Assembly (NCBI GenBank): GCA_041664165.1
Contig: JBAYLH010000005.1
Coordinates: 344-64,343, forward strand
Direction of reading: 5' to 3'
Source: Candidatus Buchananbacteria bacterium
GTDB taxonomy: Bacteria > Patescibacteriota > Patescibacteriia > Buchananbacterales > UBA6539
DNA length: 64,000 nucleotides
The notes beneath the pieces were generated by a model. That model had not been told where the DNA came from. It searched no databases and worked only from the letters and a program-made list of their open reading frames with translations. The position numbers were made by a program, and so were the translations under genes. Shown here piece by piece: positions 37,792 to 53,184 of the stretch (positions are counted from its first letter, which is position 1; every line of letters starts with the position of its first letter).

Positions 37792-39228
37792 TTATATTTT
37801 TCTCACCACGCCATTATCCGCATCGACTTCCACTTTGTCACCGTCTTTTAAAATTTTGGTTGAGATCTTAGTCCCAACAATACAAGGTATCTTTAATTCT
37901 CTGGCAACAATCGCCGCATGACAAGTCAAACCGCCTTCATCGGTAACTATTGCCGCCGCCTTTTTCATAATCGGCAGCATCTCCGGCCGGGTCATACCGG
38001 TAACCAAAATATCGCCTGATTTCATTTTGTAAAAGCCGCTTTCGCCAAATATCACCTTAACTTCACCTGAAACTTTGCCGCCCGAAGCGACTGTCCCGGA
38101 AATTTTATCAAGCCGGCCATGAATTTTTTTGAACTCTTTTGGGATTCGTTTTTTCGCGTCATTGCCGCTGTAAACTTTAAAAAATTTCTTTTGGTAATCC
38201 ACGTCCAAAATCATAAACTCTTTTCTTTTTTTCAATTCCGCTAAGTTAAAACTTTTTCCATTTTTTAAAACCAGGAGCTCTTCAAGCGTAAAAAATTGAA
38301 GATCCGATAAGCGATAGCCGAATCTTTTTGCCAATTCTTCGCGAATGTCGTCGGCATAAAATATTGACTTGACAAAAATTTCTTTCCGCCGGTCACGCAA
38401 TGGCCCGATTTCATCAACAATATCAATCAACTGCCGGGTTTTTTTATCAAACTTGTACTTTTTAATGATCTGTTTTTTCCGTTTCTCCAAATTTTTCTTA
38501 AAATCCGCCAGGTGTTTTAATTCTTCAGTCAAATTTTTATGCTGTTTGATCAATTCATTGATTCTTTTTGCAAAATAATCGGCATCGACTAGCTTTTTGC
38601 CGCTATGGCCGGTTGCCAGCCATTCATATTTTTTAAGATGGTTGTCTAAATCCTTTTGAATTTTTCGGCCGCTTCTTTTTTTAATCGCTAACCTGATTAA
38701 CTTTTGGGCTTCCAAATTTAAGTAACTGATGTCGGGAATTGCCGCTGAATCGGAAAATTCATCGCTGGAAAGTTTATATTTCATTAATTCTTTTTCAAAA
38801 ATCCGGGGCAAAACGTAATCAAAAGCTTCGGCAAAAAAACCGTAGCTAAACATTTCTTTGTAGCATTTCGTAAAGAAGTCCAAATGACCAAATAAGGCAT
38901 CAACCGACATCGCTGACGGGTTTTTTTGCCGGTACTCCAAGATTTTTTTATCCAATTTTGACTTTAATCCGGCTAATCCTATTTTGATTTTAGCCCTGAA
39001 CTTTTTAGCTTTAAATTTGTTATAGCATTTATTGCCAATTACGATATTGTCTTTAATTAGAGTACTCCATCTAAACGGCTGATTTTTTTCCAAAATTACC
39101 AAATTGCGATCAAAGCCAAACCCGTAAATTTTTCGCATGCCGACAGTCATCGCCCAGGCCGCTTCCGGACAAATCCAATAAATCGCCTCGGCTTCGTCAA
39201 TATCCCATTTCGGATTTGTTTTTTTCAT
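37792..39228 (-). CDS. PEP-utilizer paralog 1: divergent N-terminal domain plus C-terminal phospho-histidine swivel domain (rifampicin-phosphotransferase-like C-terminal half)
   Basis: The C-terminal ~100 aa (GDILVTGMTRPEMLPIMKKAAAIVTDEGGLTCHAAIVARELKIPCIVGT) is a PEP-utilizer mobile domain with the catalytic His. It begins 10-14 nt after the stop codon of the PPDK_N gene. Confidence 0.7.
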   Translation of the reverse strand: MKKTNPKWDIDEAEAIYWICPEAAWAMTVGMRKIYGFGFDRNLVILEKNQPFRWSTLIKDNIVIGNKCYNKFKAKKFRAKIKIGLAGLKSKLDKKILEYRQKNPSAMSVDALFGHLDFFTKCYKEMFSYGFFAEAFDYVLPRIFEKELMKYKLSSDEFSDSAAIPDISYLNLEAQKLIRLAIKKRSGRKIQKDLDNHLKKYEWLATGHSGKKLVDADYFAKRINELIKQHKNLTEELKHLADFKKNLEKRKKQIIKKYKFDKKTRQLIDIVDEIGPLRDRRKEIFVKSIFYADDIREELAKRFGYRLSDLQFFTLEELLVLKNGKSFNLAELKKRKEFMILDVDYQKKFFKVYSGNDAKKRIPKEFKKIHGRLDKISGTVASGGKVSGEVKVIFGESGFYKMKSGDILVTGMTRPEMLPIMKKAAAIVTDEGGLTCHAAIVARELKIPCIVGTKISTKILKDGDKVEVDADNGVVRKI

Positions 39229-39242
39229 ACTTATTTATAACC

Positions 39243-40235
39243 TTATAATGTCGTTATTGGCCGGCTTTGAGTAATGTAAAATTTGCCCTTGGCAAAAGCC
39301 CACTCAATATCCTGCGGCTTTTTATAATGTTTTTCAATCGCCAGACAAATTTTGGCCAGCTCAATTATTTGTCTGCCGGACAGCACTTGAGTTTCCTGTT
39401 TGTTTTTCGGCACCGGCCGCCAAATATTGCCGCCGTTAATTCCTTTTTTTACCAGCATTCTTTTTTGCTCAGAGACATTAATATCAATACTGCTGAAATC
39501 CCGTTTGTCAATCACGTAGCTGTCAGGCGTAATTTGGCCGGAAACAATCGCTTCGCCCAAGCCAAAACCCGCTTCAATAATCATCTGATTTTTATCTTTG
39601 GTAACAGGGTGAACCGTAAAAGTAATCCCGGAAATTTCCGAATCAACCATTTGCTGAACCACGACGGCGACTGAAACTTTCTGGTCGCTTAATTTTTTTT
39701 CATAGCGGTAAAAAATCGCCCGCGGCGTGAAAAGCGACGACCAGCAGAGTCCGACATTTTTTAGCAATGTTTTTTCGGTTGTGTTTAAATAAGTTTCCAG
39801 TTCCCCGGCCCAGGAAGCCACGCTTGAATCTTCCGCCGTCGCCGAAGACCTGACGGCGACATACTTGGTTTTAAGTTTTTTAAATTCCTGTTTTATTTCT
39901 TCGGCTAAAACTTTGGGAATTTTGGTATCAACCATAATATCCCGGATGATATTGGAAGCCTGGTCAATTGAATTGGTGTCTTTAAAATTAACTTTTTTCA
40001 AATTGGCAGCGACTTCCAAACCCACCTCGGCCACTTCTTTTCTGGTTTTCAGGCTCAAAAAATACTCAAAAGCCTCGGCTAAAATCACAAACCCCGGCGG
40101 CACCGGAATTTTGGCTTTAGTCATTTCGCCAAGCGAAGCGCCTTTGCCGCCGGCGATGCCAACGTCAATTTTGGAAATTTGCGAAAATGGCTTGATGAAT
40201 TTAGACATAGATTTAATATCCTTGAGGTTTCCCAT
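39243..40235 (-). CDS. stand-alone PEP-utilizer ATP-binding domain (PPDK_N-like ATP-grasp), 330 aa
   Basis: GGKGASLGEM nucleotide-binding start. The size and ordering of the QQMVDSE.SG..F and IEWA blocks match the N-terminal domain of PEP synthase / pyruvate phosphate dikinase / rifampicin phosphotransferase. Confidence 0.7.
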   Translation of the reverse strand: MGNLKDIKSMSKFIKPFSQISKIDVGIAGGKGASLGEMTKAKIPVPPGFVILAEAFEYFLSLKTRKEVAEVGLEVAANLKKVNFKDTNSIDQASNIIRDIMVDTKIPKVLAEEIKQEFKKLKTKYVAVRSSATAEDSSVASWAGELETYLNTTEKTLLKNVGLCWSSLFTPRAIFYRYEKKLSDQKVSVAVVVQQMVDSEISGITFTVHPVTKDKNQMIIEAGFGLGEAIVSGQITPDSYVIDKRDFSSIDINVSEQKRMLVKKGINGGNIWRPVPKNKQETQVLSGRQIIELAKICLAIEKHYKKPQDIEWAFAKGKFYITQSRPITTL

Positions 40236-41514
40236 CTTTAATCAAAAAGAATCTACTGCCATCATCTTTTTCGCACTCAACGTTCACTTCGCCCATCAAT
40301 ATCATGTCGCAATGGACTTTAGCTCTATTAAAACTAGGGTGGCTTTTGGGAACTCCCATTGAGCCGTTACTGCCAACGGCAATATGAACCGTGCCATACA
40401 TCTTTTCGCCTTCGCTTGACCCGACGTCTTTGGCTTCTTTTCCCCGGCAAGCCATAGTGTTTGTTCCAATACCCAATTCCGCCAAGCGATAAGCATCATT
40501 ATGGCCATTATTACCGGCATTCAAATATGCTTTTACCGATTCAACTAAAGGATTGCCGGTATCATCGCTAATCGGCCGGTTATTGATTTCAGTTACCTCT
40601 CCATTTGCAATAGTCAGCCTTACCGGTCCGTGCTCGTTAACCGCATCAAGCATGTGCTCGCCGCCAATCGGGCCGTTAATCACTAAACTCCCGCTGCTGC
40701 CTTCCCAATTTGGCGAGCAGGCCCATTCGCCGATTGGATAATTACCCATCGAACCCGGCTTGGTAAAATCTTCACTCTCATAGCCCTTGGTCTCCTTAAT
40801 GATTGGCAGCCAAAGGTCGGTGCCGGCCAATGAAGTGAGATGAACTCTTTCAACATTTTTCATCAACTCATTGACTTTATCATCTCTTTCTAAAATTGCT
40901 TCCGCTGACTCCTCCACTGCGCCCTCGGTTAAAATCTCATGGGGATTCTTTCCTTTGGTAATTGAAATGATCCGACAGGCATTCTGGCGGGCAAATTGTT
41001 CCAATTTTTCCCATTGCTCATCAGATAATTTATCTTCCAGACCGGCTAGCTGGCTCTTACTTCTGGCGGCTGACAAAGTGGCGTCTAATTTTTCCCGGTC
41101 AGCAATACTGCGGATTGCCGCCCCGGTTTCTTTTGAGTGCGACCGCGACATGGAAGTAATAATTAATATTGGCGCCTGGCGCTGACTTTCCATTTCTGCC
41201 TCTACATAATCACCCATATCTTCAGCTGATCTTTCCGATTCGGTCAAAACTCTGATTCTAAAATTACCCCTAGCTTTATGTCCAGCCGTCATTGCTTCTA
41301 ATTCGCCTTGAATAGCGGCAATTAATTCCGGCTGAGACTCCATAACGCCGGTATCGGTAATTACCGTCATAGTTTCTTTTTTTGGATCAAAACCGAAGGA
41401 TCCAATAATATTTTTAGCAACCACTGCCATTCTTTCTAATCTTTCCTTTTGTTCAGGGTTTAACTCTTGGGCTGGTAAAAAATTTTCGGCAATCCCCTTC
41501 AAACTTCTTTTCAT
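40213..41514 (-). CDS. putative M29-family aminopeptidase (AmpS/aminopeptidase T-like)
   Basis: About 430 aa with a C-terminal GTVHIAVGSN ... HCDMIL metal-site-like pattern. Start taken at the Met of MKRSLKG (41514); the track ORF extends to 41586. The similarity is recalled, not searched. Confidence 0.4.
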   Translation of the reverse strand: MKRSLKGIAENFLPAQELNPEQKERLERMAVVAKNIIGSFGFDPKKETMTVITDTGVMESQPELIAAIQGELEAMTAGHKARGNFRIRVLTESERSAEDMGDYVEAEMESQRQAPILIITSMSRSHSKETGAAIRSIADREKLDATLSAARSKSQLAGLEDKLSDEQWEKLEQFARQNACRIISITKGKNPHEILTEGAVEESAEAILERDDKVNELMKNVERVHLTSLAGTDLWLPIIKETKGYESEDFTKPGSMGNYPIGEWACSPNWEGSSGSLVINGPIGGEHMLDAVNEHGPVRLTIANGEVTEINNRPISDDTGNPLVESVKAYLNAGNNGHNDAYRLAELGIGTNTMACRGKEAKDVGSSEGEKMYGTVHIAVGSNGSMGVPKSHPSFNRAKVHCDMILMGEVNVECEKDDGSRFFLIKDGKPQGY

Positions 41515-41524
41515 ATTATTATTT

Positions 41525-42349
41525 TTATTTTTTAGAGTTGCATAAAGCCACGGCATGGACGATATGCCAAAAAAAATCTTTTTCATTTCTCGTACCGTCT
41601 TCGTAAACTACGCCCAAATCCAAGTAGTTAGCTGACAACATATTCCAACCCCCCAAATAGAGCAGAGCTTTGATCCAGGAATTGCCAACCAGACCGGTGG
41701 AAGGAACAATTAGATTCCTGCCTTCCCAAACAGCGGTTTCGTACTCCATGTAATATTCTTTGGCATCATAACCTTTGTTGGTTAAATATTCATAAAATTG
41801 AGTGCATTGTTCGCTGATGTTATCCAAAATTTGGTATTCGCCGTGGTGGCTGGACGGCCGCAAAATCCCCATAACTGCAATTTTTGGTTCAATGCCGAAA
41901 TCTTCCTTCATGTGCCTAATCGTTCTTTCAACTTCATAAATTTTATCTTCTAAGTTCAAACCTTGATAAACCGAGCAGGTAGACAGAAAAAAATTATAAT
42001 CGCCTTTCTGCATTATGCCGCCAAACACCTTGCGATTGCTGGGAATGGGCTCAATTCCGAATTCTTTATAAAATACACTCAAGGTAGTTGAGTCTTTTAC
42101 TTGTCCCCTGACAATTCCTTCAACTTTGCCGTCTTTTAACAATTTAATTAAGATTTCACTTGATTTATCTTGATCCGGTTCGACAATATTTTCAAAGCCT
42201 TTTACTTTCGCGCCGACCACGACTAAATCGGCAAATTTTGAGGCCTTTTTTAGGCTTTTGATCGTTTCCGGAATCGGCCGCATAATTGCAATACCAATTT
42301 TTCTTTTTTGTTTTTTAGCTTGGGTTAAAAAAATTTTGGTAAAGTCCAT
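41525..42349 (-). CDS. phosphate acyltransferase (Pta/Ptb-like) family protein
   Basis: KRKIGIAIMRPIPETIKSLKKA ... VVVG ... KIAVMGIL resembles the PTA_PTB fold organisation. Start trimmed to the Met of MDFTKIF. Confidence 0.3.
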   Translation of the reverse strand: MDFTKIFLTQAKKQKRKIGIAIMRPIPETIKSLKKASKFADLVVVGAKVKGFENIVEPDQDKSSEILIKLLKDGKVEGIVRGQVKDSTTLSVFYKEFGIEPIPSNRKVFGGIMQKGDYNFFLSTCSVYQGLNLEDKIYEVERTIRHMKEDFGIEPKIAVMGILRPSSHHGEYQILDNISEQCTQFYEYLTNKGYDAKEYYMEYETAVWEGRNLIVPSTGLVGNSWIKALLYLGGWNMLSANYLDLGVVYEDGTRNEKDFFWHIVHAVALCNSKK

Positions 42350-42359
42350 ACATTTTAAG

Positions 42360-43133
42360 TTAATCATTAAAGATAAAAATTGGCTCCTGATAATGCCTGA
42401 TTTTATTTTCTTCAAACCTTTTTTTAATCAAGTTTTGCAGCTGCTGATTTTTCCAAGTTAAGCCCTTACTGCTTTTCAAAATAACTATCGGCAAATCAAT
42501 TCGTAAAGCCCGGCCGGAAACAAGATGGCGCGTAATCCCCGAGGGCACCTTGAGGTTTTTTTCCGCTACCAAAATGATATCTTGCGGCGTAAACTTAGGA
42601 AAAACAATTAAAGTTTTATTTTCGCCGTTAACCGAAAAATCGCTGGCATTATCCAAGCGATAAAATTTATAACGCTTGGCGTATAAATCAACAATTTTAT
42701 TTAAAGCTTCAATCTGCGTAAAAAAATCTTTCTTTTTAATCGGCCGGCAAACAATTTTATTGCCTCGCAATTTAAATTTCTTAGCCATCGGCTTGCTGAC
42801 CATTTTTTTGATCTGGCTAAAAAAATCTCTGGCCTTGATGCCGGCAACTAAATGATTCCAAGTTTTTAATTCCAGCCCCGGTTGCTGGTAATCAATGACT
42901 TGCACTAAAATATCTTTAAATCCCAATTGACGAAAAACTGTGGTCCGGTTTGCTCCGTCTAAAACGACAAATTTCCCCGACTTGCTGATTGGTGCTACGA
43001 CGGGCGGATTGGTAAAAATATCGTCTTTTTTTATTTTGGCCGCCAACCTTTTGACCCGGTTGGGATCAACATCTTCATGCAAAACCAAATTCGATAAACT
43101 GACAATTTTTAAATTAGGTAAATTTTTGGTCAT
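42360..43133 (-). CDS. ParB/sulfiredoxin-like nuclease-domain protein
   Basis: LVLHEDVDPNRVKRL ... PPVVA ... FVVLDGANRTTVFRQLG matches the ParB N-terminal (ParBc) core. Confidence 0.4.
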   Translation of the reverse strand: MTKNLPNLKIVSLSNLVLHEDVDPNRVKRLAAKIKKDDIFTNPPVVAPISKSGKFVVLDGANRTTVFRQLGFKDILVQVIDYQQPGLELKTWNHLVAGIKARDFFSQIKKMVSKPMAKKFKLRGNKIVCRPIKKKDFFTQIEALNKIVDLYAKRYKFYRLDNASDFSVNGENKTLIVFPKFTPQDIILVAEKNLKVPSGITRHLVSGRALRIDLPIVILKSSKGLTWKNQQLQNLIKKRFEENKIRHYQEPIFIFND

Positions 43134-43139
43134 ACTTAA

Positions 43140-43772
43140 TTACTTAAACTTTTTTTCATTAGCCAGCAAATCTTTTAAGTTGCCAATCTGCCACCAGTCA
43201 GCTTTTTTAGCTAACCCTGAATTATTATTCAAAATATGGTAAATTCGCCGGGAAAAACCAAGATATTTTTTCTGCACTAATTTTACCGCTTCAATAAACA
43301 TTTGGCAATTTGTCAATTTATCATCGGTATAAACGACCGTTTTATAGCCTTGCTGATATTTCTTTTGCAAATAACCAACTAGCATCTCTTCGGTCTTTTT
43401 GTTGGTCTCGCCGTAGTCAAAAGTGGTATTGATTTTTTGAAAATATTTCCGAAAATCAAAGCCAGTTTTTGGCACCAAATACGCCGCTCGCCAATCCATC
43501 TGCTCCGGCACGCCCGTGGTAAAGGCTTCGTTATGCTTTGCCAAAATTAATGCTTCTTTTGCCCCCGGCTGCAGTTTGAGCTGAAAATACCAGCCTTTTT
43601 CATAAGGAATTTGATACGTCTCTTCATATTCACGGTCAGAAACTTCAGAAATTTTTTTACCCAGTTGAGCCGCCACCCAGGCATCGTAATTTGGCCAGCC
43701 GGTTTTTTCTTTATCCCAAACCTCATAAAAAATCGTGCCCGCCAAATCCCAAAGATAAAGAGTCTTATTCAT
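43140..43772 (-). CDS. hypothetical protein (possible degenerate HAD-like fold)
   Basis: LYLWDLAGTIF resembles HAD motif I, but the second Asp is Ala. No other motif recognised. Confidence 0.25.
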   Translation of the reverse strand: MNKTLYLWDLAGTIFYEVWDKEKTGWPNYDAWVAAQLGKKISEVSDREYEETYQIPYEKGWYFQLKLQPGAKEALILAKHNEAFTTGVPEQMDWRAAYLVPKTGFDFRKYFQKINTTFDYGETNKKTEEMLVGYLQKKYQQGYKTVVYTDDKLTNCQMFIEAVKLVQKKYLGFSRRIYHILNNNSGLAKKADWWQIGNLKDLLANEKKFK

Positions 43773-43864
43773 ATTTTAATTTATCTCAATTTTTTCTGAA
43801 TCTATTATTTTGCCATCATTATCAAATTTAAATTGCTCACAGAAATGCGGCACTTCTTCCGCTG

Positions 43865-44554
43865 TTATCCCCCCCCCCTATCTTCATAAAGTGCCTGCCC
43901 CAATGACCCGGAATGGCCGACGGCAAACAAAACAATGGGTGACTGCCGTCGATTTGAATCACTATCTTTCGACTGCTTTATACTGTCATGAACCAATTTG
44001 ACGAATTGTCGATATCTTTCCGCTGATTCCTTGGGCAATATTTCAGGAGCTATATCATTATTTGGATTATTCATGTCGTTCAGCCACCTGTATGTCGCTT
44101 CTTCTTCACTAATACCCTCCTCTTTTATCATCCTATCATAAGGATCCCAGGTATCAGGGCTTGAATCAGCTAACATGCTTACGATCTCTTTTCCATCAAT
44201 TTCCAACATATCAATTATTTTATCCTTTCCCTCACGCTGGCTTAAACGTTCATTAACCAAGTGACGACATAATTTAGCCCTGTCTTTACCGCTATCAAGC
44301 GTTACTAAAATTGACTGCACCGGCAATTTATCATAAAGATTATCAGCTAATTTGAGACTGCGCTGAATTCCTTCAAGCTTAAGAGGTGTTTCACCGGCCT
44401 CAAGCATTTCCGGAAACTCATTTTTTAAAACTCCCATTACCAAGCTTATTTGCTCAGCTGGAAAAACTCGTGACAATGATTCTTCGCTTATTTGCCATGA
44501 TCCCTTATCTGCATGACGAGTAATAATAGAGTCACCATTTCTTAATTTGTCCAT
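43865..44554 (-). CDS. histidine-phosphatase-superfamily-like protein ending in a G10/C10 homopolymer
   Basis: IITRHADKGSW (RHG-like) and LFAVGHSGSLG (second His). The last codons, GGG GGG GGG, are encoded by a 10-C run at 43869-43878. Confidence 0.3.
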   Translation of the reverse strand: MDKLRNGDSIITRHADKGSWQISEESLSRVFPAEQISLVMGVLKNEFPEMLEAGETPLKLEGIQRSLKLADNLYDKLPVQSILVTLDSGKDRAKLCRHLVNERLSQREGKDKIIDMLEIDGKEIVSMLADSSPDTWDPYDRMIKEEGISEEEATYRWLNDMNNPNNDIAPEILPKESAERYRQFVKLVHDSIKQSKDSDSNRRQSPIVLFAVGHSGSLGQALYEDRGGG

Positions 44555-44570
44555 ATTTTTTTATTATTAA

Positions 44571-46157: not shown

Positions 46158-46160
46158 ATA

Positions 46161-46230
46161 CTATTTTATTTTTTTAACCACGCCTTTATCAGCATCTACC
46201 TCAATTCTGTCGCCTGTCTGAAAAACCAAG
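46161..46230 (-). pseudogene. remnant of the last ~20 codons of a PEP-utilizer paralog (..FQTGDRIEVDADKGVVKKIK*), fused to REP sequence
   Basis: The tail matches the DRIEVDAD.G..KKI C-termini of the intact paralogs. The upstream part of the 64-aa track ORF is a translation of hairpin repeats. A second, ~8-codon tail remnant (AERVVKKI*) lies at about 46893-46920. Confidence 0.55.
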
Positions 46231-46242
46231 GCCGTGGTCTTT

Positions 46243-46350
46243 AAAAAAAATGGCGACCCGACTTTTCCGCCCGAGGCGGATGCGCCCTGACTGCCGTCAG
46301 GGCGGCGATAGGCAGGCTTTGGCGCAAGTCGGCATTCATTTAAATAATTT
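46243..46350. repeat. REP/BIME-like hairpin block, left flank of the RAYT gene
   Basis: The aaaaaaaatggcgacccgactt ... gtcggcattcatttaaataattt unit recurs at 46942-46996. Internal perfect hairpins: cgccctgac tgcc gtcagggcg (46283-46303) and ccgcc cga ggcgg. Confidence 0.65.
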
Positions 46351-46863
46351 ATCAAAGTTAGTTCTATCTTCCAAATTTAAGGCATTAACTGATAAAATCA
46401 GATCCTGAATCGTCTGCTCTCCATATTGAGCCGCCCCTTGCTTGCAGCTGGTAAAGGGACTGCTATTCAATTCATCAAAATTCTTGGCTTCTCCATGTTT
46501 TAAAAGATTACCTAAGATATAGCCTAAAACCTTTTTTAATTTTTCCTCGTCCACCACTTTTTCCCAATACTCGCCCCAGACGCTCCGCTTGATATTATTT
46601 AAAACATTTAATTCATGGGAACTGCCGCCGGCGATAAATTGTTCTAATTTTGGCAAAACCTCGCCTTTTGGTAAATAAATCAGGTAATGGTAATGATTGG
46701 AAATAATACTGAAGGCATGGAGCGAAAAATTAAATTTTTTTTGAGCGGCCATCAAACGATTTAAAATGATTTTCTTCTTATCAGCGGTGTCAAACAGCTT
46801 TTCATGGTTATTGGTTGAGCGAGTGACAAAATAATAGCAATCATCAAAGTATAAATGAATCAT
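46336..46863 (-). mobile_element. REP-associated tyrosine transposase (RAYT; IS200/IS605 TnpA-like, HUH Y1)
   Basis: HUH motif SNHYHYLIY, an N-terminal YYFVTRSTNNHEKLF block typical of RAYT/IS200 TnpA, and ~175 aa length. It is flanked on both sides by hairpin-rich repeats. Confidence 0.65.
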
Positions 46864-47008
46864 ATAATCTGTTATAGCCGACTAAAGTCGGGTTACCTAA
46901 TTTATTATATTTTTTTAACTACTCTCTCGGCAAAAATGAACTTTAAAAAAATGGCGACCCGACTTTAGTCGGCATTCATTTAAATAATTTCTCGTCGGGT
47001 TACCTAAT
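46864..47008. repeat. REP/BIME-like hairpin block, right flank of RAYT
   Basis: Contains gccgactaaagtcgg hairpins, two copies of gggttacctaatttatt, and a direct copy of the aaaaaaatggcgacccgactttagtcggcattcatttaaataattt unit. Confidence 0.65.
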
Positions 47009-48334
47009 TTATTTTATTTTTCTAATTATTCCTTCATCGGCATCAACCTCAATTCTGTCACCGTCTTTAAAGACTTTCGTTGCTATTTCGGTACCAACCA
47101 CACAGGGAATTTTCAGCTCCCGGGCGACAATGGCCGAATGCGAAGTAAAGCCTCCGATATCGGCCACAATGGCTGAAACTTTATGCAAAACCGGCATATA
47201 ATCTGGCATGGTAATTTCACAAACAATAATATCACCTTTTTTTACCTTGTTGAACTCGGCCGTTGAAAGCACAACTTTTGCGATTCCTCGGACAATGCCG
47301 GCAGAAACGCCTTTGCCAGAAACTTGATCTTTTTTTTCGAAAACTCGGTTAAAAAGTTGGTAAATTTTGGCCGCCGGCTCGCCGGTATAAATATTATTTT
47401 TAATGTTGACATACCGCTTCTGTCGCAAAGTCAAATCAACTGGAATTTTTTTAGCCATAACTTCTTGGGGTTTGAGATGAATTAATTCGTCACAACTCAA
47501 ACCCAGCCGCCGGCCCAGCTCTTTGAACAAAGGATAAAAATTATAAATGCCGCGCAGAAATTGTTCAAACCGAAAATCTCGAATGTAAAGCAATCTCTGT
47601 GAAATCTCAGCTTGTTTTTTTAGTCCGGCCGGCAATTTTTTATATATCTGAAAATAACGTTTTTCGGAATTTTGATGCTGCTTTTCCATTTCCGCCAATT
47701 CCTTTTTGGGATTTTTGATGGCGGCTAGCTGTTCTTTGAGGTAAAAATCATCGACAGTTTTAAAAGCCGCCAATTCAATATTGCTCCAAGCCCATTTGGT
47801 TTTAAACTCGCTTTTTTTTATTTGGCCAGACCTGAGAAGCAATAAATCCTTTTTTCGGCGCTGGTTGTAAGTGTTGGATAAAGGGTAGGTTAAAGCGTCA
47901 AATTCTTTATTGGTTAAACCGAATCGCAAAAGCGAATTGATTAATTTTTTCTCAAAATGATATGAGGCATAAACAGAAATATCAATGATCCTTAAATAAT
48001 TGCCCCAAAGCCGATAACACTCCTTAAACGATTTAACTAGGCTGGGCCAACTAGCCTCGACAAAACTTCTCCTATATTTTTTTGAGGCGGCGACATATTC
48101 CCGCGCTCGCTTGTCAATTAAATTTATAACCTTTACGATTTCTTGATCCGATAAATAATATTTGGCTAAATCTTTTTTACTAAAAAACCATTGACCGTCA
48201 AGATAAATTAGTTCGACATTGCTAAAGCCGTCTTTAGCCATTCTTTGCCTTTCCCTAATTTCGGCCGATGACAAAAAAACTGATTCTTTGCCATAAAAAA
48301 GTTTAATGTAATTTTTCGGGTTAAGCTTAATCAT
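47009..48334 (-). CDS. PEP-utilizer paralog 3 (divergent N-terminal domain plus His swivel domain)
   Basis: C-terminus GDIIVCEITMPDYMPVLHKVSAIVADIGGFTSHSAIVARELKIPCVVGT. Confidence 0.7.
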   Translation of the reverse strand: MIKLNPKNYIKLFYGKESVFLSSAEIRERQRMAKDGFSNVELIYLDGQWFFSKKDLAKYYLSDQEIVKVINLIDKRAREYVAASKKYRRSFVEASWPSLVKSFKECYRLWGNYLRIIDISVYASYHFEKKLINSLLRFGLTNKEFDALTYPLSNTYNQRRKKDLLLLRSGQIKKSEFKTKWAWSNIELAAFKTVDDFYLKEQLAAIKNPKKELAEMEKQHQNSEKRYFQIYKKLPAGLKKQAEISQRLLYIRDFRFEQFLRGIYNFYPLFKELGRRLGLSCDELIHLKPQEVMAKKIPVDLTLRQKRYVNIKNNIYTGEPAAKIYQLFNRVFEKKDQVSGKGVSAGIVRGIAKVVLSTAEFNKVKKGDIIVCEITMPDYMPVLHKVSAIVADIGGFTSHSAIVARELKIPCVVGTEIATKVFKDGDRIEVDADEGIIRKIK

Positions 48335-49791
48335 TATATTTTTTTAACTATTCCCTCATTGGCATCAACTTCAATCCTATCCCCTGTCTTAAAAACTTGA
48401 GTGGCAATTTTAGTTCCGACAATGCACGGGATACCAAGCTCGCGCGAGACAATGGCCGCGTGACAAGTAATACCGCCATCATCCGTAACAATGGCGGCGG
48501 CTTGGCGCATGGCCGGCAAATAGTCAATGGTAGTCATTGACGCCACTAAAACACCGCCCTTTTTGACGATTTTTAAAGCTTCTCTGGCTCCTTTTACCAC
48601 AAAAGCTTGCCCTACCACCTTGCCTCGGCTAGCTGAAACACCGGTAACCTGAGAAGTTTTACTGGCCTTAATTTCTGAAAGAACCAATTTATCTAAAATT
48701 TTCTTTGCTTCCAAGCCTAAATATTCTTTGATTTTTCCTCGTTTAATCACCCAGGTTAAACCCTGCTGGCGTTCAGCAATCAGCGATTTATCAACTTTAA
48801 TATTTTTTAAACACAAATTTTTAATCTCCGAATTATCATAAAATACCAAATCTCGATATTTAAGTTTAAACCTTTTTGCCATCATTCGCAAAGCCGGAAA
48901 AATAATCTGGTTAGAACGCATTTGCGTTTCCTTTCGCCAGTCATGAAACATGGCAAAAGCATCCAAGAGATGAAAATATGGCTTTAGTTTTCCAAAAGAC
49001 AAATGATATTTATTTACCAAATCATTTCTTCCGGCTTCAACTGATTTAATAAAATTATTAATTCGTTTCAATTCCTCGCTTCTTAAATCAAAACTTTTTA
49101 TTTTCAATTTTTTTATGTCTTTTTCAATGCGGCCGACAGTCAGTTCATTGCTGCCGTCCCAGCCCATCATAATCCAGCCAAAACGCTTAGCCATTTTTTT
49201 CAAATCAGCCTGACTAACAATTTTATTCAGGGAAAATTGCAAAAGATTTTTTTTATAAAGCAAACTTTCGGAAATATAGGCGGGTTCCATCAATTGGCCT
49301 AAATCGGTTTGATTAATTTTGTTTTTGGCCATTAATTGCAGCTTTTCGCTAAAAATTTTACCAAAAAAATCATCAAATAAATCGGTAGTATATTCGGAAA
49401 AACTAATGCTTTTTAAAAACACCTGCTGGGCTTGGCGATACAAATTATACAGTTCCTGATCGGTTATATTTTTTAATTCGGCATCTCTCAAAGGCAGTAA
49501 AATTGTTTTGACCTCGCATTGGGATTTCCGGTATAAAGAAAAAATTTTATTGAATTCGGTTTTATCGGTTAGCCATTTTTTTAACCAGCGGCGCAGGGTT
49601 TTTTCCAAATAATCAGCATCGCGCGACCAGTAAAAATAATCCTGGCAATAAGCCATGACTTCATAATGATTGGCCAAATAAGGATATTTTTTCGAAGGCG
49701 AAAGCTTAATCAAATCCAAATAAGCCGACATACCTTGCGGATAAAGCCGATCCCGCTCGTAAACCCGCCAATTGATTTTTTTAGTAGGCAT
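48334..49791 (-). CDS. PEP-utilizer paralog 4
   Basis: C-terminus VLVASMTTIDYLPAMRQAAAIVTDDGGITCHAAIVSRELGIPCIVGT. Its stop overlaps the start of paralog 3 by 1 nt. Confidence 0.7.
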   Translation of the reverse strand: MPTKKINWRVYERDRLYPQGMSAYLDLIKLSPSKKYPYLANHYEVMAYCQDYFYWSRDADYLEKTLRRWLKKWLTDKTEFNKIFSLYRKSQCEVKTILLPLRDAELKNITDQELYNLYRQAQQVFLKSISFSEYTTDLFDDFFGKIFSEKLQLMAKNKINQTDLGQLMEPAYISESLLYKKNLLQFSLNKIVSQADLKKMAKRFGWIMMGWDGSNELTVGRIEKDIKKLKIKSFDLRSEELKRINNFIKSVEAGRNDLVNKYHLSFGKLKPYFHLLDAFAMFHDWRKETQMRSNQIIFPALRMMAKRFKLKYRDLVFYDNSEIKNLCLKNIKVDKSLIAERQQGLTWVIKRGKIKEYLGLEAKKILDKLVLSEIKASKTSQVTGVSASRGKVVGQAFVVKGAREALKIVKKGGVLVASMTTIDYLPAMRQAAAIVTDDGGITCHAAIVSRELGIPCIVGTKIATQVFKTGDRIEVDANEGIVKKI

Positions 49792-49792
49792 A

Positions 49793-51346
49793 TTATTTAA
49801 TTTTTTTCACTGTGCCGTTATTCATATCCATTTCAATCAAATCGTTGTTTTTTAAAATTCTAGTTGCTGTTTTTGTCCCAATAATACAGGGAACCCCAAG
49901 CTCCCGAGACACAATCGCTGCGTGGCACGTCAAACCGCCTTCGTCAGTGACAATGGCTTTGACCCGGCGCAACAAAGGCAAAAATTCCGGCCGCGTCATA
50001 GTAGTAACTAAGATATTTCCAGCTTTAAAATTCTGCCGATTAACGTCCAAAATAACCTGTGCCTTACCGCTGATTTTTTCAACCGGCGCACAAGCCACTT
50101 GGCCTTTTATTTCCGTACCGTTTAAAATTTTTGAAAACAAATTATAAATTGATTTAGCCTGGCCGCCATAAAAAATTTTTTCTTCACAGCGCCAGTTTTT
50201 TGACCGAATCACAACTTGGGCTGAAAATTTCCGCCTTGATTCTAACAAAGCAGTAAGCACTTTTTTGTTGTTTATAAGCAAATCATGAAATTCCTCTGAC
50301 GTATAGTATTTGACCAAGCCGACATCTTGTTTAAATCGTTTAGCAACTTGCTGACAAAAAATTTCGTTATAATGATCAGCTATTGTCATAAATTTTTTCC
50401 GGTCATCTATCCATTCTGCCATATAAGCTACGATTAAAAAATGCCGTTTTAAATTTTTAGAAAAATTATATTGTTTTAGGTATTTTTTCTTGGCTTGTTT
50501 GAGTCGGGAAACTTTTGTTGAAAAATTATTAAATATTGCCAATAATTCATTTTTAGTTTTCTCTAATGCCAAAATTTTCATCCGATCTAAAAAATACTGC
50601 TCATCTAATATCTGAGCTTTTTGAAAATTATTACCAATCCAAAAATAGCTTTTAACTAATTTTTTAAGTATTATTCGTAAAGTCGGCAGTTTTAAAATAA
50701 TTTTTTCAGATTCAATTTTGTTTTTGTCTGATAAAATTTTGTAGGCCAAAATTGCTCCCTTGAAAATTAGATACTCTTCTTTTTCTAAAAATGACAACTT
50801 TACCGGCGCGGAAAAAGTTATGGCAATATCCAAAGCTTTATTTTCAGATAAGCCGGAAGTTTCTTTTTTAATTAACCCAATCAATTTTTCGCTGGAAAAA
50901 ATATCAGTACACTCTAAAGCCATGCCATAGCGAATAAAATCCATATAAGCTTTTTCACCATAAAAATTTTGATAAAACTTCCATAATTGTTTATTATTGA
51001 CATTGGAAATATTTTTTTCCAATATTTTGCCAGCCGCTAGAAAATGACTGACAAATTTTTCACTGGCCTTTCTCAAATTTTTTAAATAATTTTTATTTTT
51101 TAAAACCTGATCATAAATATAATAATAAACCTTTAATTTCTCATCGGCTGGAGTCAATTCGGAAAAAAAATCATTGCGATAGATAAAAACAGACAAGGTT
51201 AGATATTTTGGATGAAAATATTTAGCTTGCTCAATAAAAGCTCTAAGTGGCCATCCAACGAAAGCGTAAACCCCTGGCGCTTCTTCCAACCACCAAGTAT
51301 GATTATTAATCTCTTCTAATACTGATGACAAATTAATATTTTTCAT
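49793..51346 (-). CDS. PEP-utilizer paralog 5
   Basis: C-terminus GNILVTTMTRPEFLPLLRRVKAIVTDEGGLTCHAAIVSRELGVPCIIGT. Confidence 0.7.
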   Translation of the reverse strand: MKNINLSSVLEEINNHTWWLEEAPGVYAFVGWPLRAFIEQAKYFHPKYLTLSVFIYRNDFFSELTPADEKLKVYYYIYDQVLKNKNYLKNLRKASEKFVSHFLAAGKILEKNISNVNNKQLWKFYQNFYGEKAYMDFIRYGMALECTDIFSSEKLIGLIKKETSGLSENKALDIAITFSAPVKLSFLEKEEYLIFKGAILAYKILSDKNKIESEKIILKLPTLRIILKKLVKSYFWIGNNFQKAQILDEQYFLDRMKILALEKTKNELLAIFNNFSTKVSRLKQAKKKYLKQYNFSKNLKRHFLIVAYMAEWIDDRKKFMTIADHYNEIFCQQVAKRFKQDVGLVKYYTSEEFHDLLINNKKVLTALLESRRKFSAQVVIRSKNWRCEEKIFYGGQAKSIYNLFSKILNGTEIKGQVACAPVEKISGKAQVILDVNRQNFKAGNILVTTMTRPEFLPLLRRVKAIVTDEGGLTCHAAIVSRELGVPCIIGTKTATRILKNNDLIEMDMNNGTVKKIK

Positions 51347-52809
51347 ATTTTTTTAACTGTCCCCTTGCCAGTATCAACTTCTACCAAGTCCCCGTCTTTC
51401 AAAACCTTGGTGGCAATTTTGGTGCCGACAATGCACGGTATGCCAAGCTCGCGCGAAACAATGGCCGCGTGGCTAGTCATCCCGCCTTCGTCAGTGATAA
51501 TGGCGGCGGCCTTTTTAATCACGACAATATAATCGGGCGAAGTCATCGGGGTGACTAAAATTTCGCCTTTTTCCATGGTTTTGAAATCAGCGGCGGAATT
51601 TATAATCCTGACTTTCGCCGCAACTTTTTTGCCGCGGCTGACCACCAAACCCTTAAATTCACTGATTTTTTTATTGGCGGCCTTTGCCGCGGGCGGAATA
51701 AATTGAGCGATAATCTTTTTTGCCGGCGCGCCGGAAACATATTTCAAAGAATTGCTATTCTGCGAATAATGAACGACTAAATAATTCTGCCGACTTTTGA
51801 TTTCTTCGGCGGAAATTTTTTTACCCTTCTCGGCCAAATCCAAAGTCTCATAAACATTGTAAAAATGCAGATCATTAAAACTCAGGCCGTATCGTCTGGC
51901 AAATTCAGCCAAAAATAAGTCAATATAATGATTGGCCAAAAAAATGTAATATTTCCTTAAATCTTGCCACCAAACGCAAAAACTCAAACGGCTGGCGATT
52001 TTTTTAATTACCGGCGTAATTTTATATTTCCTGGCCAATTCGTCTTTTTCCTTTTTCACCCGCCGACTGAAAAATTCTAATTCTTTAATTTTAGCTTGGG
52101 CTTTTTTCAAGCTATAACCGGCCAGTTCATTTTCAAAATATTTTCTATCTAAAATTTTAGTATGATGATAGCTGTTTAAAAGCCAAAAATGGTTTTTTTG
52201 ATAATTAACTAATTTACTTTCGAATAAGGCCTGACGCTTTTCATATTTTTTTAATTTTAGCAGCTCCAAATCCGCCTTTTGATAAAAAGATAAATTTTCC
52301 GGAGCCGACAACCTTTCAAAAACAAAAATAAAATCTTTTGGCTGAATTATTTTTTCCAAAATTTTTTTTAAAATATCCTCCGCTCCCCAATTCGCGACTT
52401 CCGGCAATAAACCGAATTTCCAGAAATTGACATAAGCTTTGACCCAATTTTTATAAAATTTCGCCAGCTGCCGGTCGGTTAAATTCCTCAGCCGATCTTT
52501 TGTTATATCTTTTTGCAAATCCAACAAAAGATTAACGCTATTATGCCATAGCCCATAATACCGTTTTAAATTTTTACCAGCCAAAACAAACCGATTAAAA
52601 TTATTCCGCCCGCTTTTTCTTAAATTGGCAAAATCGACTATGGCAATCATTTTGTCCGGATAATATTCCAGCCATAAAACATCGGGCCAGCTATAAAAAG
52701 TTTTTTGGTACTGCGTGAAAGCTACATTAAAAAAATCGGGGTAAATCAACTTGCCGTCAATCGGACCCCAACGAAATAATTCCGCCTTCGGGTTGATATC
52801 AATCTTCAT
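51343..52809 (-). CDS. PEP-utilizer paralog 6
   Basis: C-terminus GEILVTPMTSPDYIVVIKKAAAIITDEGGMTSHAAIVSRELGIPCIVGT. It overlaps paralog 5 by 4 nt. Confidence 0.7.
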   Translation of the reverse strand: MKIDINPKAELFRWGPIDGKLIYPDFFNVAFTQYQKTFYSWPDVLWLEYYPDKMIAIVDFANLRKSGRNNFNRFVLAGKNLKRYYGLWHNSVNLLLDLQKDITKDRLRNLTDRQLAKFYKNWVKAYVNFWKFGLLPEVANWGAEDILKKILEKIIQPKDFIFVFERLSAPENLSFYQKADLELLKLKKYEKRQALFESKLVNYQKNHFWLLNSYHHTKILDRKYFENELAGYSLKKAQAKIKELEFFSRRVKKEKDELARKYKITPVIKKIASRLSFCVWWQDLRKYYIFLANHYIDLFLAEFARRYGLSFNDLHFYNVYETLDLAEKGKKISAEEIKSRQNYLVVHYSQNSNSLKYVSGAPAKKIIAQFIPPAAKAANKKISEFKGLVVSRGKKVAAKVRIINSAADFKTMEKGEILVTPMTSPDYIVVIKKAAAIITDEGGMTSHAAIVSRELGIPCIVGTKIATKVLKDGDLVEVDTGKGTVKKI

Positions 52810-52857: not shown

Positions 52858-53184
52858 TTATTTCCTCGCTACCGTCGCATACTCAAAAAACATTTTCTCC
52901 AAATCAGGCAAAGCCACCGAATAATTCCCGGCGGCGGAATAAATATCGGCCAAAACTTCTTTCAGCCGGCCGATTTCACCGCTATGCCCGACATTTTTTC
53001 TGTCTGCCAAAGTCAAATCAAGCAAATCAAAAGACCTCTCTAGCGAAGAATTACGCTTTTTAATCTCGCCTTTATCCTCAAAATATCTTGCCCGAGAGAC
53101 TTCGCTGCCGATATTTCCCAGTTGCTCAAAAATATTCAATTTTTGCCATTTCTCCAGCTCCATACTAAATAACCAAGTTATCAA
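52858..53184 (-). CDS. putative HEPN-domain toxin-like protein
   Basis: An R-x4-H motif (ADRKNVGHSGE) in a small all-alpha-looking protein. It overlaps the upstream 114-aa partner by 20 nt. Confidence 0.25.
   Translation of the reverse strand: MITWLFSMELEKWQKLNIFEQLGNIGSEVSRARYFEDKGEIKKRNSSLERSFDLLDLTLADRKNVGHSGEIGRLKEVLADIYSAAGNYSVALPDLEKMFFEYATVARK

What the first reader, a model, noticed from the sequence alone, without database searches (positions are those of the whole stretch)
37792..52809. One ATP-grasp domain, six His-swivel paralogs: a split and multiplied rifampicin-phosphotransferase-like or PEP-synthase-like system
Seen in the sequence:
- a 330-aa ORF (39243-40235) that is only the PPDK_N-type ATP-binding domain
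- 10-14 nt downstream of it, an ORF (37792-39228) made of a ~350-aa domain plus a C-terminal phospho-histidine mobile domain (GGLTCHAAIVARELKIPCIVGT)
- five further paralogs (44571-46157, 47009-48334, 48334-49791, 49793-51346, 51343-52809) with the same layout: the last ~100 aa are conserved, including the catalytic His and the DRIEVDAD.G..KKI tail; the N-terminal domains are strongly divergent and share only short blocks (W.D.RK..; ..RFGY/L..DL.F)
- none of the five carries its own ATP-grasp domain

Established knowledge: rifampicin phosphotransferase is ordered ATP-grasp, then substrate-binding domain, then C-terminal His swivel domain. PEP synthase has the same N-terminal domain. In these enzymes the swivel His carries phosphate from the nucleotide site to the substrate site.

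Inference: this could be a modular phosphotransferase system. One shared ATP-binding domain would charge a family of diversified substrate-binding plus swivel proteins acting on different targets. This arrangement has not, to my knowledge, been described as a system. The 1-4 nt overlaps between paralogs 3-6 point to translational coupling in a single operon.
Basis: partly seen in the sequence, partly recalled or inferred. Interest (0 to 1): 0.9.

Follow-up and report, generated by a model that had tools for sequence, protein, structure and literature searches.

The report
One ATP domain, many phosphate-carrier kinases
A tiny-genome (CPR/Patescibacteria) bacterium encodes one stand-alone ATP-binding kinase subunit next to six diverged partner proteins that each carry a substrate pocket and a phosphate-shuttling histidine domain. 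This one-to-many layout is widespread in ultra-small bacteria and archaea, is sometimes fused into giant proteins, and I found no description of it.

Summary
On the minus strand there is one ATP-grasp-only gene (39243-40208/40235) and six intact genes made of a ~335-420-aa helical domain plus a C-terminal His-swivel domain.

What the parts are:
- Catalytic residues are kept in the ATP-grasp, the swivel and the substrate domain.

Evidence that the split and the multiplicity are real:
- The split is not a frameshift. In 29 metagenome loci anchored on the ATP-grasp gene there is always one ATP-grasp and 0-7 (median 4) same-strand swivel genes.
- Each of five window paralogs has a 52-72% ortholog in related genomes, against ~30% between paralogs.
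- Other CPR/DPANN genomes fuse one ATP-grasp with 2-9 modules in a single protein of up to 3,761 aa.

What is already known: the split itself, in the two-component dikinases PpsAB, CreHI and HpeHI. The one-to-many arrays and the megafusions were not described in any paper I could search.

What remains open: the substrates are unknown, and sharing of the ATP-grasp is inferred, not shown. I rate it a new variant of a known kind, interest about 0.68.

The parts
39243..40235 (-). G: stand-alone ATP-grasp (PPDK_N) subunit. The likely true start is Met10 at 40208 (321 aa). It ends exactly at the RPH ATP-grasp domain boundary (...SRPITTL*).
   Evidence: Pfam PF01326 E 3e-93. PDB hits: PEP synthase 8a8e E 3e-71, RPH 5hv6/5fbs E 4e-63, HpeI 9goj E 3e-49. 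K31, R129 and T148 align with RPH K22, R117 and T136. The top 120 homologues are all stand-alone, 258-369 aa (all but two 310-369), 64-87% identical.
37792..39228 (-). S1: substrate-domain + His-swivel subunit (478 aa), 14 nt downstream of G. Catalytic His437; motif D279-R-R281-K282.
44571..46157 (-). S2: paralogous substrate+swivel subunit (528 aa; a 525-aa start is also called). His484; motif DERK.
   Evidence: PF00391 E 2e-25. Independent N-domain profile E 1e-77. Orthologue 68% in L003 and 64% in L086.
47009..48334 (-). S3: the most divergent paralog (441 aa). His399; motif DFRF (Lys replaced by Phe).
48334..49791 (-). S4: paralog (485 aa). His444; motif DWRK. Overlaps the S3 start by 1 nt.
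   Evidence: PF00391 E 4e-25. Independent profile E 1e-49. Orthologue 61% in L003 and 72% in L086.
49793..51346 (-). S5: paralog (517 aa). His475; motif DDRK. No close orthologue in the loci fetched.
   Evidence: PF00391 E 1e-24. Independent profile E 5e-45. Best outside hits are ~30% identical.
51343..52809 (-). S6: paralog (488 aa). His447; motif DLRK. Overlaps the S5 start by 4 nt.
   Evidence: PF00391 E 6e-28. Independent profile E 4e-56. Orthologue 52% in L001. 42-45% identical to DPANN archaeal proteins.
40213..43772 (-). Conserved embedded gene set between the S array and G. Members: M29/NicX-like (40213-41586), Mmp4/MtxX-like with a Pta-like fold (41525-42349), SbnI/SerK-like kinase (42360-43133), and a 210-aa ORF I call HAD-like from its motif alone (43140-43772). 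Any functional link to the dikinase is unproven.
   Evidence: NCBIfam: SbnI E 2e-29, SerK E 7e-14, methanogenesis marker 4 E 5e-15. Precomputed Pfam NicX/Peptidase_M29 on orthologues. Syntenic at 60-80% identity in L001, L003 and L086. Present in 7 of 29 surveyed loci.
46162..47062 (-). Insertion that interrupts the array. It holds a REP-associated tyrosine-transposase-like gene (46336-46863) flanked by repeats and by a duplicated S3 3' end (remnant 46167-46241).
   Evidence: PF01797 E 1e-6 and NF047646 E 6e-17. Direct repeat 46162-46214 / 47010-47062 at 83% identity, plus REP-like repeats. tblastn remnant. Absent from the syntenic L003, where the S3 and S2 orthologues abut.

Best explanation
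The locus encodes a hub-and-spoke version of the RPH/PpsAB-type dikinase.

Proposed mechanism:
- One ATP-grasp subunit (G) binds ATP.
- The mobile His domain of any of six partner proteins (S1-S6) docks on G and takes the beta-phosphate, giving AMP + Pi.
- The His domain swings back onto its own helical, RPH-like substrate domain. There the conserved Asp/Arg/Lys motif helps pass the phosphate to a bound acceptor.
- Each S protein has a different substrate domain, so each is expected to phosphorylate or activate a different small molecule.

What is shown: the domain identities, the folds, retention of catalytic residues, conservation of the split, long-term retention of each paralog, 1:many gene stoichiometry across many genomes, and natural fusions of one ATP-grasp with many modules.

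What is inferred: that G charges all six S proteins, that the chemistry is ATP -> AMP + Pi + phospho-acceptor, and that the acceptors differ.

The acceptors are unknown. Dikinase chemistry is normally used to make high-energy aryl, enol or similar phosphates.
For: Domain identity:
- Pfam and NCBIfam assignments.

Fold:
- RPH is the only PDB structure that covers the N-domain, for both S1 and the most divergent paralog S3. This mirrors what was reported for HpeH.

Catalytic residues:
- G keeps the equivalents of RPH K22, R117 and T136.
- All six S proteins keep the catalytic His.
- D279 and K282 align with RPH E667 and K670. The R666-E667 pair is essential for the second phosphotransfer.

The split is real:
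- 120 closest G homologues are stand-alone.
- Synteny holds in L001, L003 and L086.

Stoichiometry:
- 29 metagenome loci of at least 12 kb, anchored on G, always have 1 G. S genes within +-10 kb on the same strand number 0-7, median 4, and 22 of 29 loci have 3 or more.
- A Nealsonbacteria locus has 8 full S genes, fragments, and 1 G.

Fusions:
- One ATP-grasp plus 9 swivels in a 3,761-aa ORF (L016). Also 1+4, 1+3 and 1+2 in L031, L027, L015 and L017, and 1+3 and 1+2 in P0248 and P0334.
- No fusion protein has more than one ATP-grasp.
- The fused ATP-grasp is 55-62% identical to the window's G, against 37-46% for true PEP synthases.

Selection:
- S orthologues are 52-72% identical across genomes in which L9 is 58-68% and PyrG 78-79%. 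Paralogs within the window are ~30% identical.

Precedent for trans charging:
- PpsAB, CreHI and HpeHI work as two separate proteins without forming a stable complex.
Against: - No biochemical or expression data exist.
- Only 64 kb of the genome is visible, so another ATP-grasp or a full PEP synthase could lie elsewhere.
- S3 lacks the Lys of the DxRK motif.
- The Arg of the motif is offset by three positions from RPH R666 in the profile alignment.
- Three of 29 G loci have no S gene within 10 kb, and some S arrays have no G within the fetched flank.
- No neighbouring gene is conserved across all arrays that would point to a substrate or pathway.
- Repertoires differ between related genomes. 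That fits accessory roles but does not identify them.
Confidence: 0.6

Rival explanations
1. Only S1, the gene immediately downstream of G, is G's partner, giving an ordinary 1:1 two-component dikinase. S2-S6 would work without G. They could be phosphotransferases that move phosphate between a phospho-donor and an acceptor, or they could use a charger encoded elsewhere in the genome.
For: - HpeH alone catalyses phosphotransfer from 4-phosphoacetophenone to acetovanillone (abstract).
- S1-type genes sit directly next to G in several genomes.
- Some arrays have no G in the fetched flank.
- Only 64 kb of the genome is visible.
Against: - Fusion proteins put one ATP-grasp in the same chain as 2-9 modules.
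- In many loci G follows an array with no S gene after it. In L086 the S gene next to G is not an S1 orthologue.
- No second ATP-grasp was found in any of the 29 loci.
- All S swivel domains are equally conserved at the surface motif around the His.
Confidence: 0.2
2. The modules are activating or ligating enzymes like the prodigiosin ligases PigC/RedH/HapC, not end-point kinases. The phospho-His would activate a carbonyl or carboxyl oxygen as a phosphate leaving group for condensation. The arrays, and especially the megaproteins, would then form a biosynthetic pathway or assembly line.
For: - The N-domains of S2, S5 and S1 align with PigC over 240-410 residues in NCBIfam.
- PigC-type enzymes have the same ATP-grasp / substrate / swivel order (model NF052631).
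- Megaproteins with up to 9 modules resemble assembly lines.
- A Pta-like (MtxX-like) gene and an acylphosphatase lie in the locus.
Against: - PigC scores are 65-83 bits against a cutoff of 1300.
- No other biosynthetic genes (carrier proteins, PKS/NRPS, tailoring enzymes) are conserved around the arrays.
- The module repertoire varies between close relatives. That fits independent functions better than a fixed pathway.
Confidence: 0.15
3. Artefact or decay. Under this reading the G/S1 pair is one RPH-like gene broken by a frameshift, and the other paralogs are decaying duplicates or fragments of PEP synthase.
For: - Databases name these proteins 'pyruvate, water dikinase' or 'PEP-utilizing enzyme'.
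- One real remnant of a swivel tail exists at 46167-46241.
Against: - The split falls at the same domain boundary in every related locus.
- All six S ORFs are intact and keep invariant catalytic residues.
- Orthologues are retained at 52-72% identity.
- There is no TIM-barrel domain (PF02896) and no ATP-grasp remnant.
- The models are confident, pLDDT 88-94.
Confidence: 0.02

Closest known systems
Two-component small-molecule dikinases: phenylphosphate synthase PpsAB, CreHI, HpeHI (PMC12167813)
   Same: - A separate ATP-grasp subunit, plus a subunit made of an RPH-like substrate domain and a C-terminal His swivel, encoded side by side.
- A catalytic His that is essential in HpeH.
- Trans charging without a stable complex.
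- An ATP -> AMP + Pi dikinase mechanism.
   Different: - Here one ATP-grasp gene accompanies six partner genes (elsewhere up to about 8-10), not one.
- The partners are ~440-530 aa rather than ~640 aa. They match the PRK08296 models only over the swivel.
- The swivel motif is PEP-synthase-type (GGxT[CS]H, with the regulatory-type Thr), not the Met-containing motif of HpeH/RPH.
- The window's G is closer to PEP synthase and RPH than to HpeI (244 and 213-217 bits against 172 bits).
- There are no aromatic-catabolism genes nearby.
- The hosts are CPR bacteria and DPANN archaea.
Rifampicin phosphotransferase RPH (PDB 5FBS/5HV1; PMC4844700)
   Same: - The same three domains in the same order: ATP-grasp, helical substrate domain, C-terminal swivel.
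- ATP-site residues K22, R117 and T136 are kept.
- The E667/K670 positions are matched by a conserved Asp and Lys.
   Different: - RPH is a single 860-aa chain with a single module.
- Only 18-19% identity over the aligned structure.
- NCBIfam RPH models score 45-80 bits against cutoffs of 999-1700.
- The substrate pocket regions are not conserved, so there is no evidence that rifamycins are substrates.
PEP synthase / pyruvate phosphate dikinase
   Same: - The ATP-grasp and swivel domains are most similar in sequence to archaeal-type PEP synthase (8a8e).
- The consensus around the His is identical.
   Different: - There is no PEP/pyruvate-binding TIM barrel.
- The domain order differs: the swivel is C-terminal to a helical domain.
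- Scores are far below the PEP synthase cutoffs (130 against 598 bits).
- Annotating these genes as PEP synthase is wrong.
Prodigiosin ligases PigC/RedH/HapC
   Same: - The same architecture as RPH.
- Weak profile alignments reach across the N-domains of several paralogs.
   Different: - They are single-chain, single-module enzymes inside pigment gene clusters.
- Scores are far below the family cutoffs.

Membership tests
RPH/PigC-type dikinases (ATP-grasp, helical substrate domain, C-terminal His swivel) | PPDK_N ATP-grasp domain with the phosphate-binding Lys, Arg and Thr (RPH K22, R117, T136) | tested here: met
   PF01326 E 3e-93. K31, R129 and T148 align with K22, R117 and T136.
RPH/PigC-type dikinases (ATP-grasp, helical substrate domain, C-terminal His swivel) | Helical substrate-binding domain of the RIF-binding-domain fold, placed N-terminal to the swivel | tested here: met
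RPH/PigC-type dikinases (ATP-grasp, helical substrate domain, C-terminal His swivel) | Catalytic His in a swivel domain within ~50 residues of the C-terminus | tested here: met
   The His is invariant in all six paralogs, 41-45 residues from the C-terminus.
RPH/PigC-type dikinases (ATP-grasp, helical substrate domain, C-terminal His swivel) | Arg666-Glu667...Lys670 phosphotransfer motif in the substrate domain | tested here: inconclusive
   The conserved D-x-R-K aligns as D=E667 and K=K670. The Arg is offset from R666, and S3 has Phe in place of Lys.
RPH/PigC-type dikinases (ATP-grasp, helical substrate domain, C-terminal His swivel) | All three domains in one polypeptide | tested here: not met
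   G and S are separate genes with a 14-nt gap in different frames. The split is conserved in relatives.
Rifamycin-inactivating phosphotransferase (functional equivalog) | Score above the NCBIfam RPH cutoffs; rifamycin as substrate | tested here: not met
   NF041857 scores 58-80 bits against a cutoff of 999. NF000283 scores 43-70 bits against 1700. Substrate use cannot be tested here.
Two-component small-molecule dikinases (PpsAB/CreHI/HpeHI) | Separate ATP-grasp subunit and substrate+swivel subunit encoded adjacently | tested here: met
   The precedent is described in PMC12167813.
Two-component small-molecule dikinases (PpsAB/CreHI/HpeHI) | One ATP-grasp gene paired with one substrate+swivel gene | tested here: not met
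   1:6 in the window. 1:0-7 (median 4) in 29 loci.
Two-component small-molecule dikinases (PpsAB/CreHI/HpeHI) | Sequence membership in the ~600-640-aa PpsA/HpeH-like subunit family. I used the PRK08296-type models as a stand-in for that family; this is my assumption, not a verified equivalence. | tested here: not met
   The PRK08296 models match only the ~100-aa swivel, at 43-115 bits against cutoffs of 578-730. G scores lower against HpeI (9goj, 172 bits) than against RPH or PEP synthase. HpeH, PpsA and CreH sequences were not compared directly.
Two-component small-molecule dikinases (PpsAB/CreHI/HpeHI) | Phenolic substrate, and a gene context of aromatic catabolism | tested here: not met
   The neighbours are housekeeping genes and the SbnI-like, MtxX-like and M29-like genes. 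No carboxylase or aromatic-pathway genes are present. Substrate use cannot be tested here.
Two-component small-molecule dikinases (PpsAB/CreHI/HpeHI) | ATP-dependent phosphorylation of the swivel His in trans, with AMP + Pi as products | not testable with these tools
   This needs purified proteins and labelled ATP.
PEP synthase (pyruvate, water dikinase) | C-terminal PEP/pyruvate-binding TIM-barrel domain, with the order ATP-grasp, swivel, TIM barrel | tested here: not met
   None of the seven proteins has a PF02896 hit. The models show a helical N-domain. NF005057 scores 110-323 bits against a cutoff of 598.

The most novel reading that the evidence does not exclude
The modules may not be independent kinases. 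They could be stations of a phosphoryl-driven assembly line fed by a single ATP-grasp 'charger'. Separate genes in this window, and up to nine modules fused behind one ATP-grasp in DPANN/CPR megaproteins, would act in sequence or in parallel on one complex target. Candidate targets are a host-derived or cell-surface polymer, or a multi-step natural product. That would be a previously unknown enzyme logic, comparable in organisation to NRPS/PKS lines.
Probability: 0.15. Interest if true: 0.9.

Novelty: new variant of a known kind. Interest (0 to 1): 0.68.

Why it matters
- **Scale in a small genome.** CPR bacteria and DPANN archaea have genomes of roughly 1 Mb and little biosynthetic capacity. 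Here about 9.8 kb goes to one ATP-grasp plus six partner genes. Relatives carry up to 8 or more partners, or megaproteins of up to 3,761 aa.
- **Size of the family.** The N-domain family has about 4,200 clusters at 50% identity in 1.84 billion representative proteins. It has no characterised member.
- **If the hub-and-spoke reading is right.** It would be a new way to organise swivelling-domain kinases, with one nucleotide site and many interchangeable acceptor modules. It may bear on how episymbionts capture, activate or detoxify host-derived molecules.
- **Annotation error.** Sources label these genes 'pyruvate, water dikinase' or 'PEP-utilizing enzyme'. That label can wrongly imply gluconeogenic PEP synthesis in CPR metabolic reconstructions. 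One CPR survey already noted that PEP synthase HMM hits needed extra domain checks (PMC7304191).
- **Use in biocatalysis.** The modular design is attractive, given current interest in HpeHI-type kinases.

Tried and rejected
Explanations tested and rejected:
- **PEP-synthase fragments or a TIM barrel.** There is no PF02896 hit, and the models are helical and RPH-like.
- **Frameshift artefact.** The split is conserved everywhere I looked.
- **Pseudogene decay.** The ORFs are intact, the motifs are invariant, and orthologues are retained.
- **Anti-phage defence system.** PADLOC gave no hits for nine proteins of the locus.

Searches that led nowhere:
- **A conserved accessory gene that would reveal the substrate.** Clustering ORFs from 34 loci found nothing shared beyond the dikinase parts. 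The exception is an M29-like gene in 4 loci. The SbnI-like, MtxX-like, M29-like and HAD-like set is confined to the syntenic subgroup and 7 of 29 surveyed loci.
- **Direct PDB sequence searches for two neighbours.** The 229-aa ORF gave nothing. The M29-like ORF gave only NicX at E 0.69.
- **Literature.** Six searches found no description of CPR/DPANN arrays or of multi-swivel proteins. MarK turned out to be an unrelated kinase type.

- Pairwise N-domain searches were too insensitive for S3 and S4. I replaced them with an independent profile.

Full report
**1. Observation**

All genes lie on the minus strand.

- ORF 39243-40235 is only a PPDK_N ATP-grasp domain (PF01326, E 3e-93). It probably starts at Met10 (40208), giving 321 aa, as in every database homologue.
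- Fourteen nt downstream starts S1 (37792-39228, 478 aa).
- Five more ORFs share S1's layout: S2 44571-46157, S3 47009-48334, S4 48334-49791, S5 49793-51346 and S6 51343-52809.
- In each of the six, the only Pfam hit is the PEP-utilizers mobile domain at the C-terminus (E 1e-24 to 6e-28).

The six-way alignment shows the invariant catalytic His in GG.T[CS]H[AS]AI. The swivel parts are 43-60% identical and the N-domains 20-29%.

Pairwise searches do not connect the N-domains of S3 and S4 to the others. I therefore built a profile from 50 homologues, none from this window. It finds all six N-domains, with E from 1e-137 down to 2e-20.

tblastn finds only one ATP-grasp in the 64 kb and no remnant upstream of any paralog.

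**2. What the parts are**

- A sequence profile of the family reaches RPH residues 626-866, about 130 residues into the RIF-binding domain.
- That alignment puts the family's near-invariant Asp and Lys (D279 and K282 in S1) on RPH Glu667 and Lys670. In RPH, Arg666 and Glu667 are essential for the second phosphotransfer (PMC4844700). The family's Arg is offset from R666, and S3 has Phe in place of the Lys.
- The stand-alone ATP-grasp keeps the equivalents of RPH Lys22, Arg117 and Thr136. It ends exactly at the RPH domain boundary.

The N-domains are therefore RPH-type substrate domains, not PEP-synthase TIM barrels. By sequence, the ATP-grasp and swivel are closest to archaeal-type PEP synthase. 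That similarity includes the Thr two residues before the His, which is a Met in HpeH and RPH.

**3. The split and the multiplicity are real and general**

*Source.* The window comes from a Patescibacteria MAG (GCA_041662345.1; ENA contig of 72.7 kb).

*Synteny.* Related genomes share the locus between MurA/S41 peptidase and L9/CTP synthase, but with different numbers of S genes.
- L001 has three.
- The Buchananbacteria locus L003 has at least five.
- L086, on a 922-kb contig, has at least six.

*Orthology.* S1, S2, S3, S4 and S6 each have a specific orthologue at 52-72% identity. In L003 the order of the four orthologues present (S4, S3, S2, S1) is preserved. Paralogs within the window are only ~30% identical. 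For comparison, L9 is 58-68%, PyrG 78-79% and the ATP-grasp 70-73% identical across the same genomes. The duplications are therefore old, and each copy has been kept under selection.

*The ATP-grasp is stand-alone in its clade.* Its 120 closest database homologues are all stand-alone proteins of 258-369 aa, all but two of them 310-369 aa.

*Survey anchored on the ATP-grasp gene* (80 metagenome loci, of which 29 are at least 12 kb):
- Every locus has exactly one ATP-grasp.
- Same-strand swivel genes within +-10 kb: 0 (3 loci), 1 (2), 2 (2), 3 (5), 4 (6), 5 (7), 6 (3), 7 (1).
- The median is 4. These counts are lower bounds, because many loci are cut at contig ends.

*Scan anchored on the swivel subunit.* It found arrays in Nealsonbacteria (8 full genes plus fragments and one ATP-grasp), Falkowbacteria, Woesearchaeota, Nanoarchaeia and others.

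*Family size.* The N-domain family has 4,247 clusters at E <= 1e-3 and 2,737 at E <= 1e-10, among 1.84 billion representative proteins.

**4. Fusion evidence for one-to-many**

Several genomes encode single proteins with one ATP-grasp followed by several modules:

| Protein | Length | Architecture |
|---|---|---|
| L016 (Woesearchaeota; ORF confirmed) | 3,761 aa | one ATP-grasp, nine swivels |
| L031 | 1,994 aa | 1+4 |
| L027 | 1,399 aa | 1+3, then four separate swivel-subunit genes |
| L015 | 1,311 aa | 1+2 |
| L017 | 1,233 aa | 1+2 |
| P0248 | 1,836 aa | 1+3 |
| P0334 | 1,341 aa | 1+2 |
| P0249 | 2,309 aa | three modules, ATP-grasp, one module |
| P0353 | 2,648 aa | 1+6 |

- No fusion protein has two ATP-grasp domains.
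- Many homologues of 580-1,500 aa are two- or three-module proteins without an ATP-grasp.
- The fused ATP-grasp domains are mostly 55-62% identical to the window's stand-alone one (P0249 and P0353, with atypical architectures, are ~36-41%), against 37-46% for genuine PEP synthases.

This is strong guilt-by-fusion evidence that one ATP site serves many modules.

**5. Mechanism**

The best-supported model combines two precedents.
- The RPH mechanism: ATP-grasp, swivel His, then substrate domain (PMC4844700).
- The trans-acting two-component dikinases PpsAB, CreHI and HpeHI. In these, the ATP-grasp protein presents ATP and the partner's His takes the beta-phosphate. AMP + Pi are released, and the phospho-His passes the phosphate to a substrate bound on the same partner. 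No stable complex is needed (PMC12167813).

Here, one G would charge six S proteins, each with its own acceptor.

- **Shown:** domains, folds, catalytic residues, stoichiometry, fusions, and purifying selection.
- **Inferred:** trans-charging of all six, the dikinase stoichiometry, and distinct acceptors.
- **Unknown:** the acceptors.

Context gives only weak hints.
- A conserved set lies between the array and G: an SbnI/SerK-like kinase, an Mmp4/MtxX-like protein with a Pta-like fold, an M29/NicX-like protein, and a protein I call HAD-like from its motif alone.
- An acylphosphatase lies downstream.
- This set is confined to a subgroup (7 of 29 loci). No accessory gene is shared by arrays in general.

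**6. Rivals**

- **(a) Only S1 pairs with G and the others work without it.** This is possible, because HpeH alone can exchange phosphate. The fusions, and loci where G follows an array with no S gene after it, argue against it.
- **(b) PigC-like activating ligases or an assembly line.** Weak PigC alignments and the megaproteins allow this. No biosynthetic context supports it.
- **(c) Artefact or decay.** Rejected on the evidence in section 3.

**7. Comparison and novelty**

- The system works like RPH and HpeHI. It is not an RPH equivalog, because its scores are far below the cutoffs.
- It is not a sequence member of the PpsA/HpeH-like subunit family as far as the PRK08296 models can represent that family (only the swivel matches). 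Using those models as a stand-in is my assumption.
- It is not a PEP synthase.
- The split is known. I could not find the one-to-many arrays or the multi-swivel megaproteins of CPR/DPANN described in the searchable literature.
- My rating is 'new variant of a known kind'.

**8. Limits**

- There are no wet-lab data, and only part of the genome is visible.
- Several loci carry the MAG label 'uncultured Gammaproteobacteria'. I did not check those labels.

Noticed in passing
window 46162-47062 (gene 46336-46863, minus strand): A REP-associated tyrosine-transposase-like gene (PF01797, NF047646) sits between S3 and S2. It is flanked by REP-like repeats and by an 83%-identical duplicate of the last ~53 nt of S3. 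The duplicate leaves a 25-aa swivel-tail remnant (FQTGDRIEVDADKGVVKKIK*) at 46167-46241. The syntenic Buchananbacteria locus has no insertion.
   Followed up: partly
window 40213-43772 (minus strand): A conserved gene set is embedded between the swivel array and the ATP-grasp gene. It holds an M29/NicX-like protein, an Mmp4/MtxX-like protein (methanogenesis marker 4, Pta-like fold), an SbnI/SerK-like free-serine-kinase homologue, and a 210-aa protein with a DLAGT motif that I call HAD-like from the motif alone. The genes are 60-80% identical in related CPR genomes. Their function is unknown, as is any link to the dikinase.
   Followed up: partly
window 43865-44554 (minus strand): A 229-aa ORF with no Pfam, NCBIfam, PDB or PADLOC hit. 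It has RHADKG and GHSGS motifs that recall histidine phosphatases (my reading only). It is present in this lineage but absent from the syntenic L003 and L086.
   Followed up: partly
window 37422-37697 (minus strand): An acylphosphatase gene lies directly downstream of S1. The same arrangement occurs in L001 and L086 but not in L003. Together with the Pta-like MtxX homologue, it could hint at acyl-phosphate chemistry.
   Followed up: no
window 47009-48334 (S3): S3 has DFRF where the other paralogs, and 90% or more of family members, have D-x-R-K. The Lys that aligns with RPH Lys670 is replaced by Phe. The S3 orthologue is still conserved at 56-61%.
   Followed up: partly
L016 6386-17671; L034 1-8814; L031 6935-12919; P0353, P0249, P0241: Giant proteins of 1,800-3,761 aa are built from tandem N-domain+swivel modules, with at most one ATP-grasp domain. 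The first three modules of L016 are a short form of ~340-350 aa. Stand-alone short forms of ~345-360 aa also occur (e.g. L084 8119-9156).
   Followed up: partly
P0067, P0068, P0081, P0094, P0098, P0101, P0102, P0105, P0108: A recurrent architecture has an N-domain followed by two swivel domains directly in tandem (~600-680 aa). This might indicate a His-to-His relay. I know of no described equivalent.
   Followed up: no
L010, L012, L018, L023, L024, L028, L035 (genome contigs): Several loci with arrays, including one with at least 8 swivel genes, come from MAGs labelled 'uncultured Gammaproteobacteria'. The family is otherwise CPR/DPANN, so these labels may reflect mis-binning, or else real spread outside those groups.
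   Followed up: no
window 51343-52809 (S6) and 37792-39228 (S1) versus L008, P0016, P0022, P0025, P0120: Individual paralog classes are 41-45% identical between this bacterium and DPANN archaea (Woesearchaeota, Nanoarchaeota). That is higher than the ~30% between paralogs within the genome. It suggests ancient paralog classes and transfer between the two domains.
   Followed up: partly
window 52858-53509 (minus strand): A DUF5674 gene (53165-53509) and an overlapping 108-aa ORF with a weak TPR-like hit lie directly upstream of S6. They are absent from the syntenic L001, where the S41 peptidase abuts the array.
   Followed up: no
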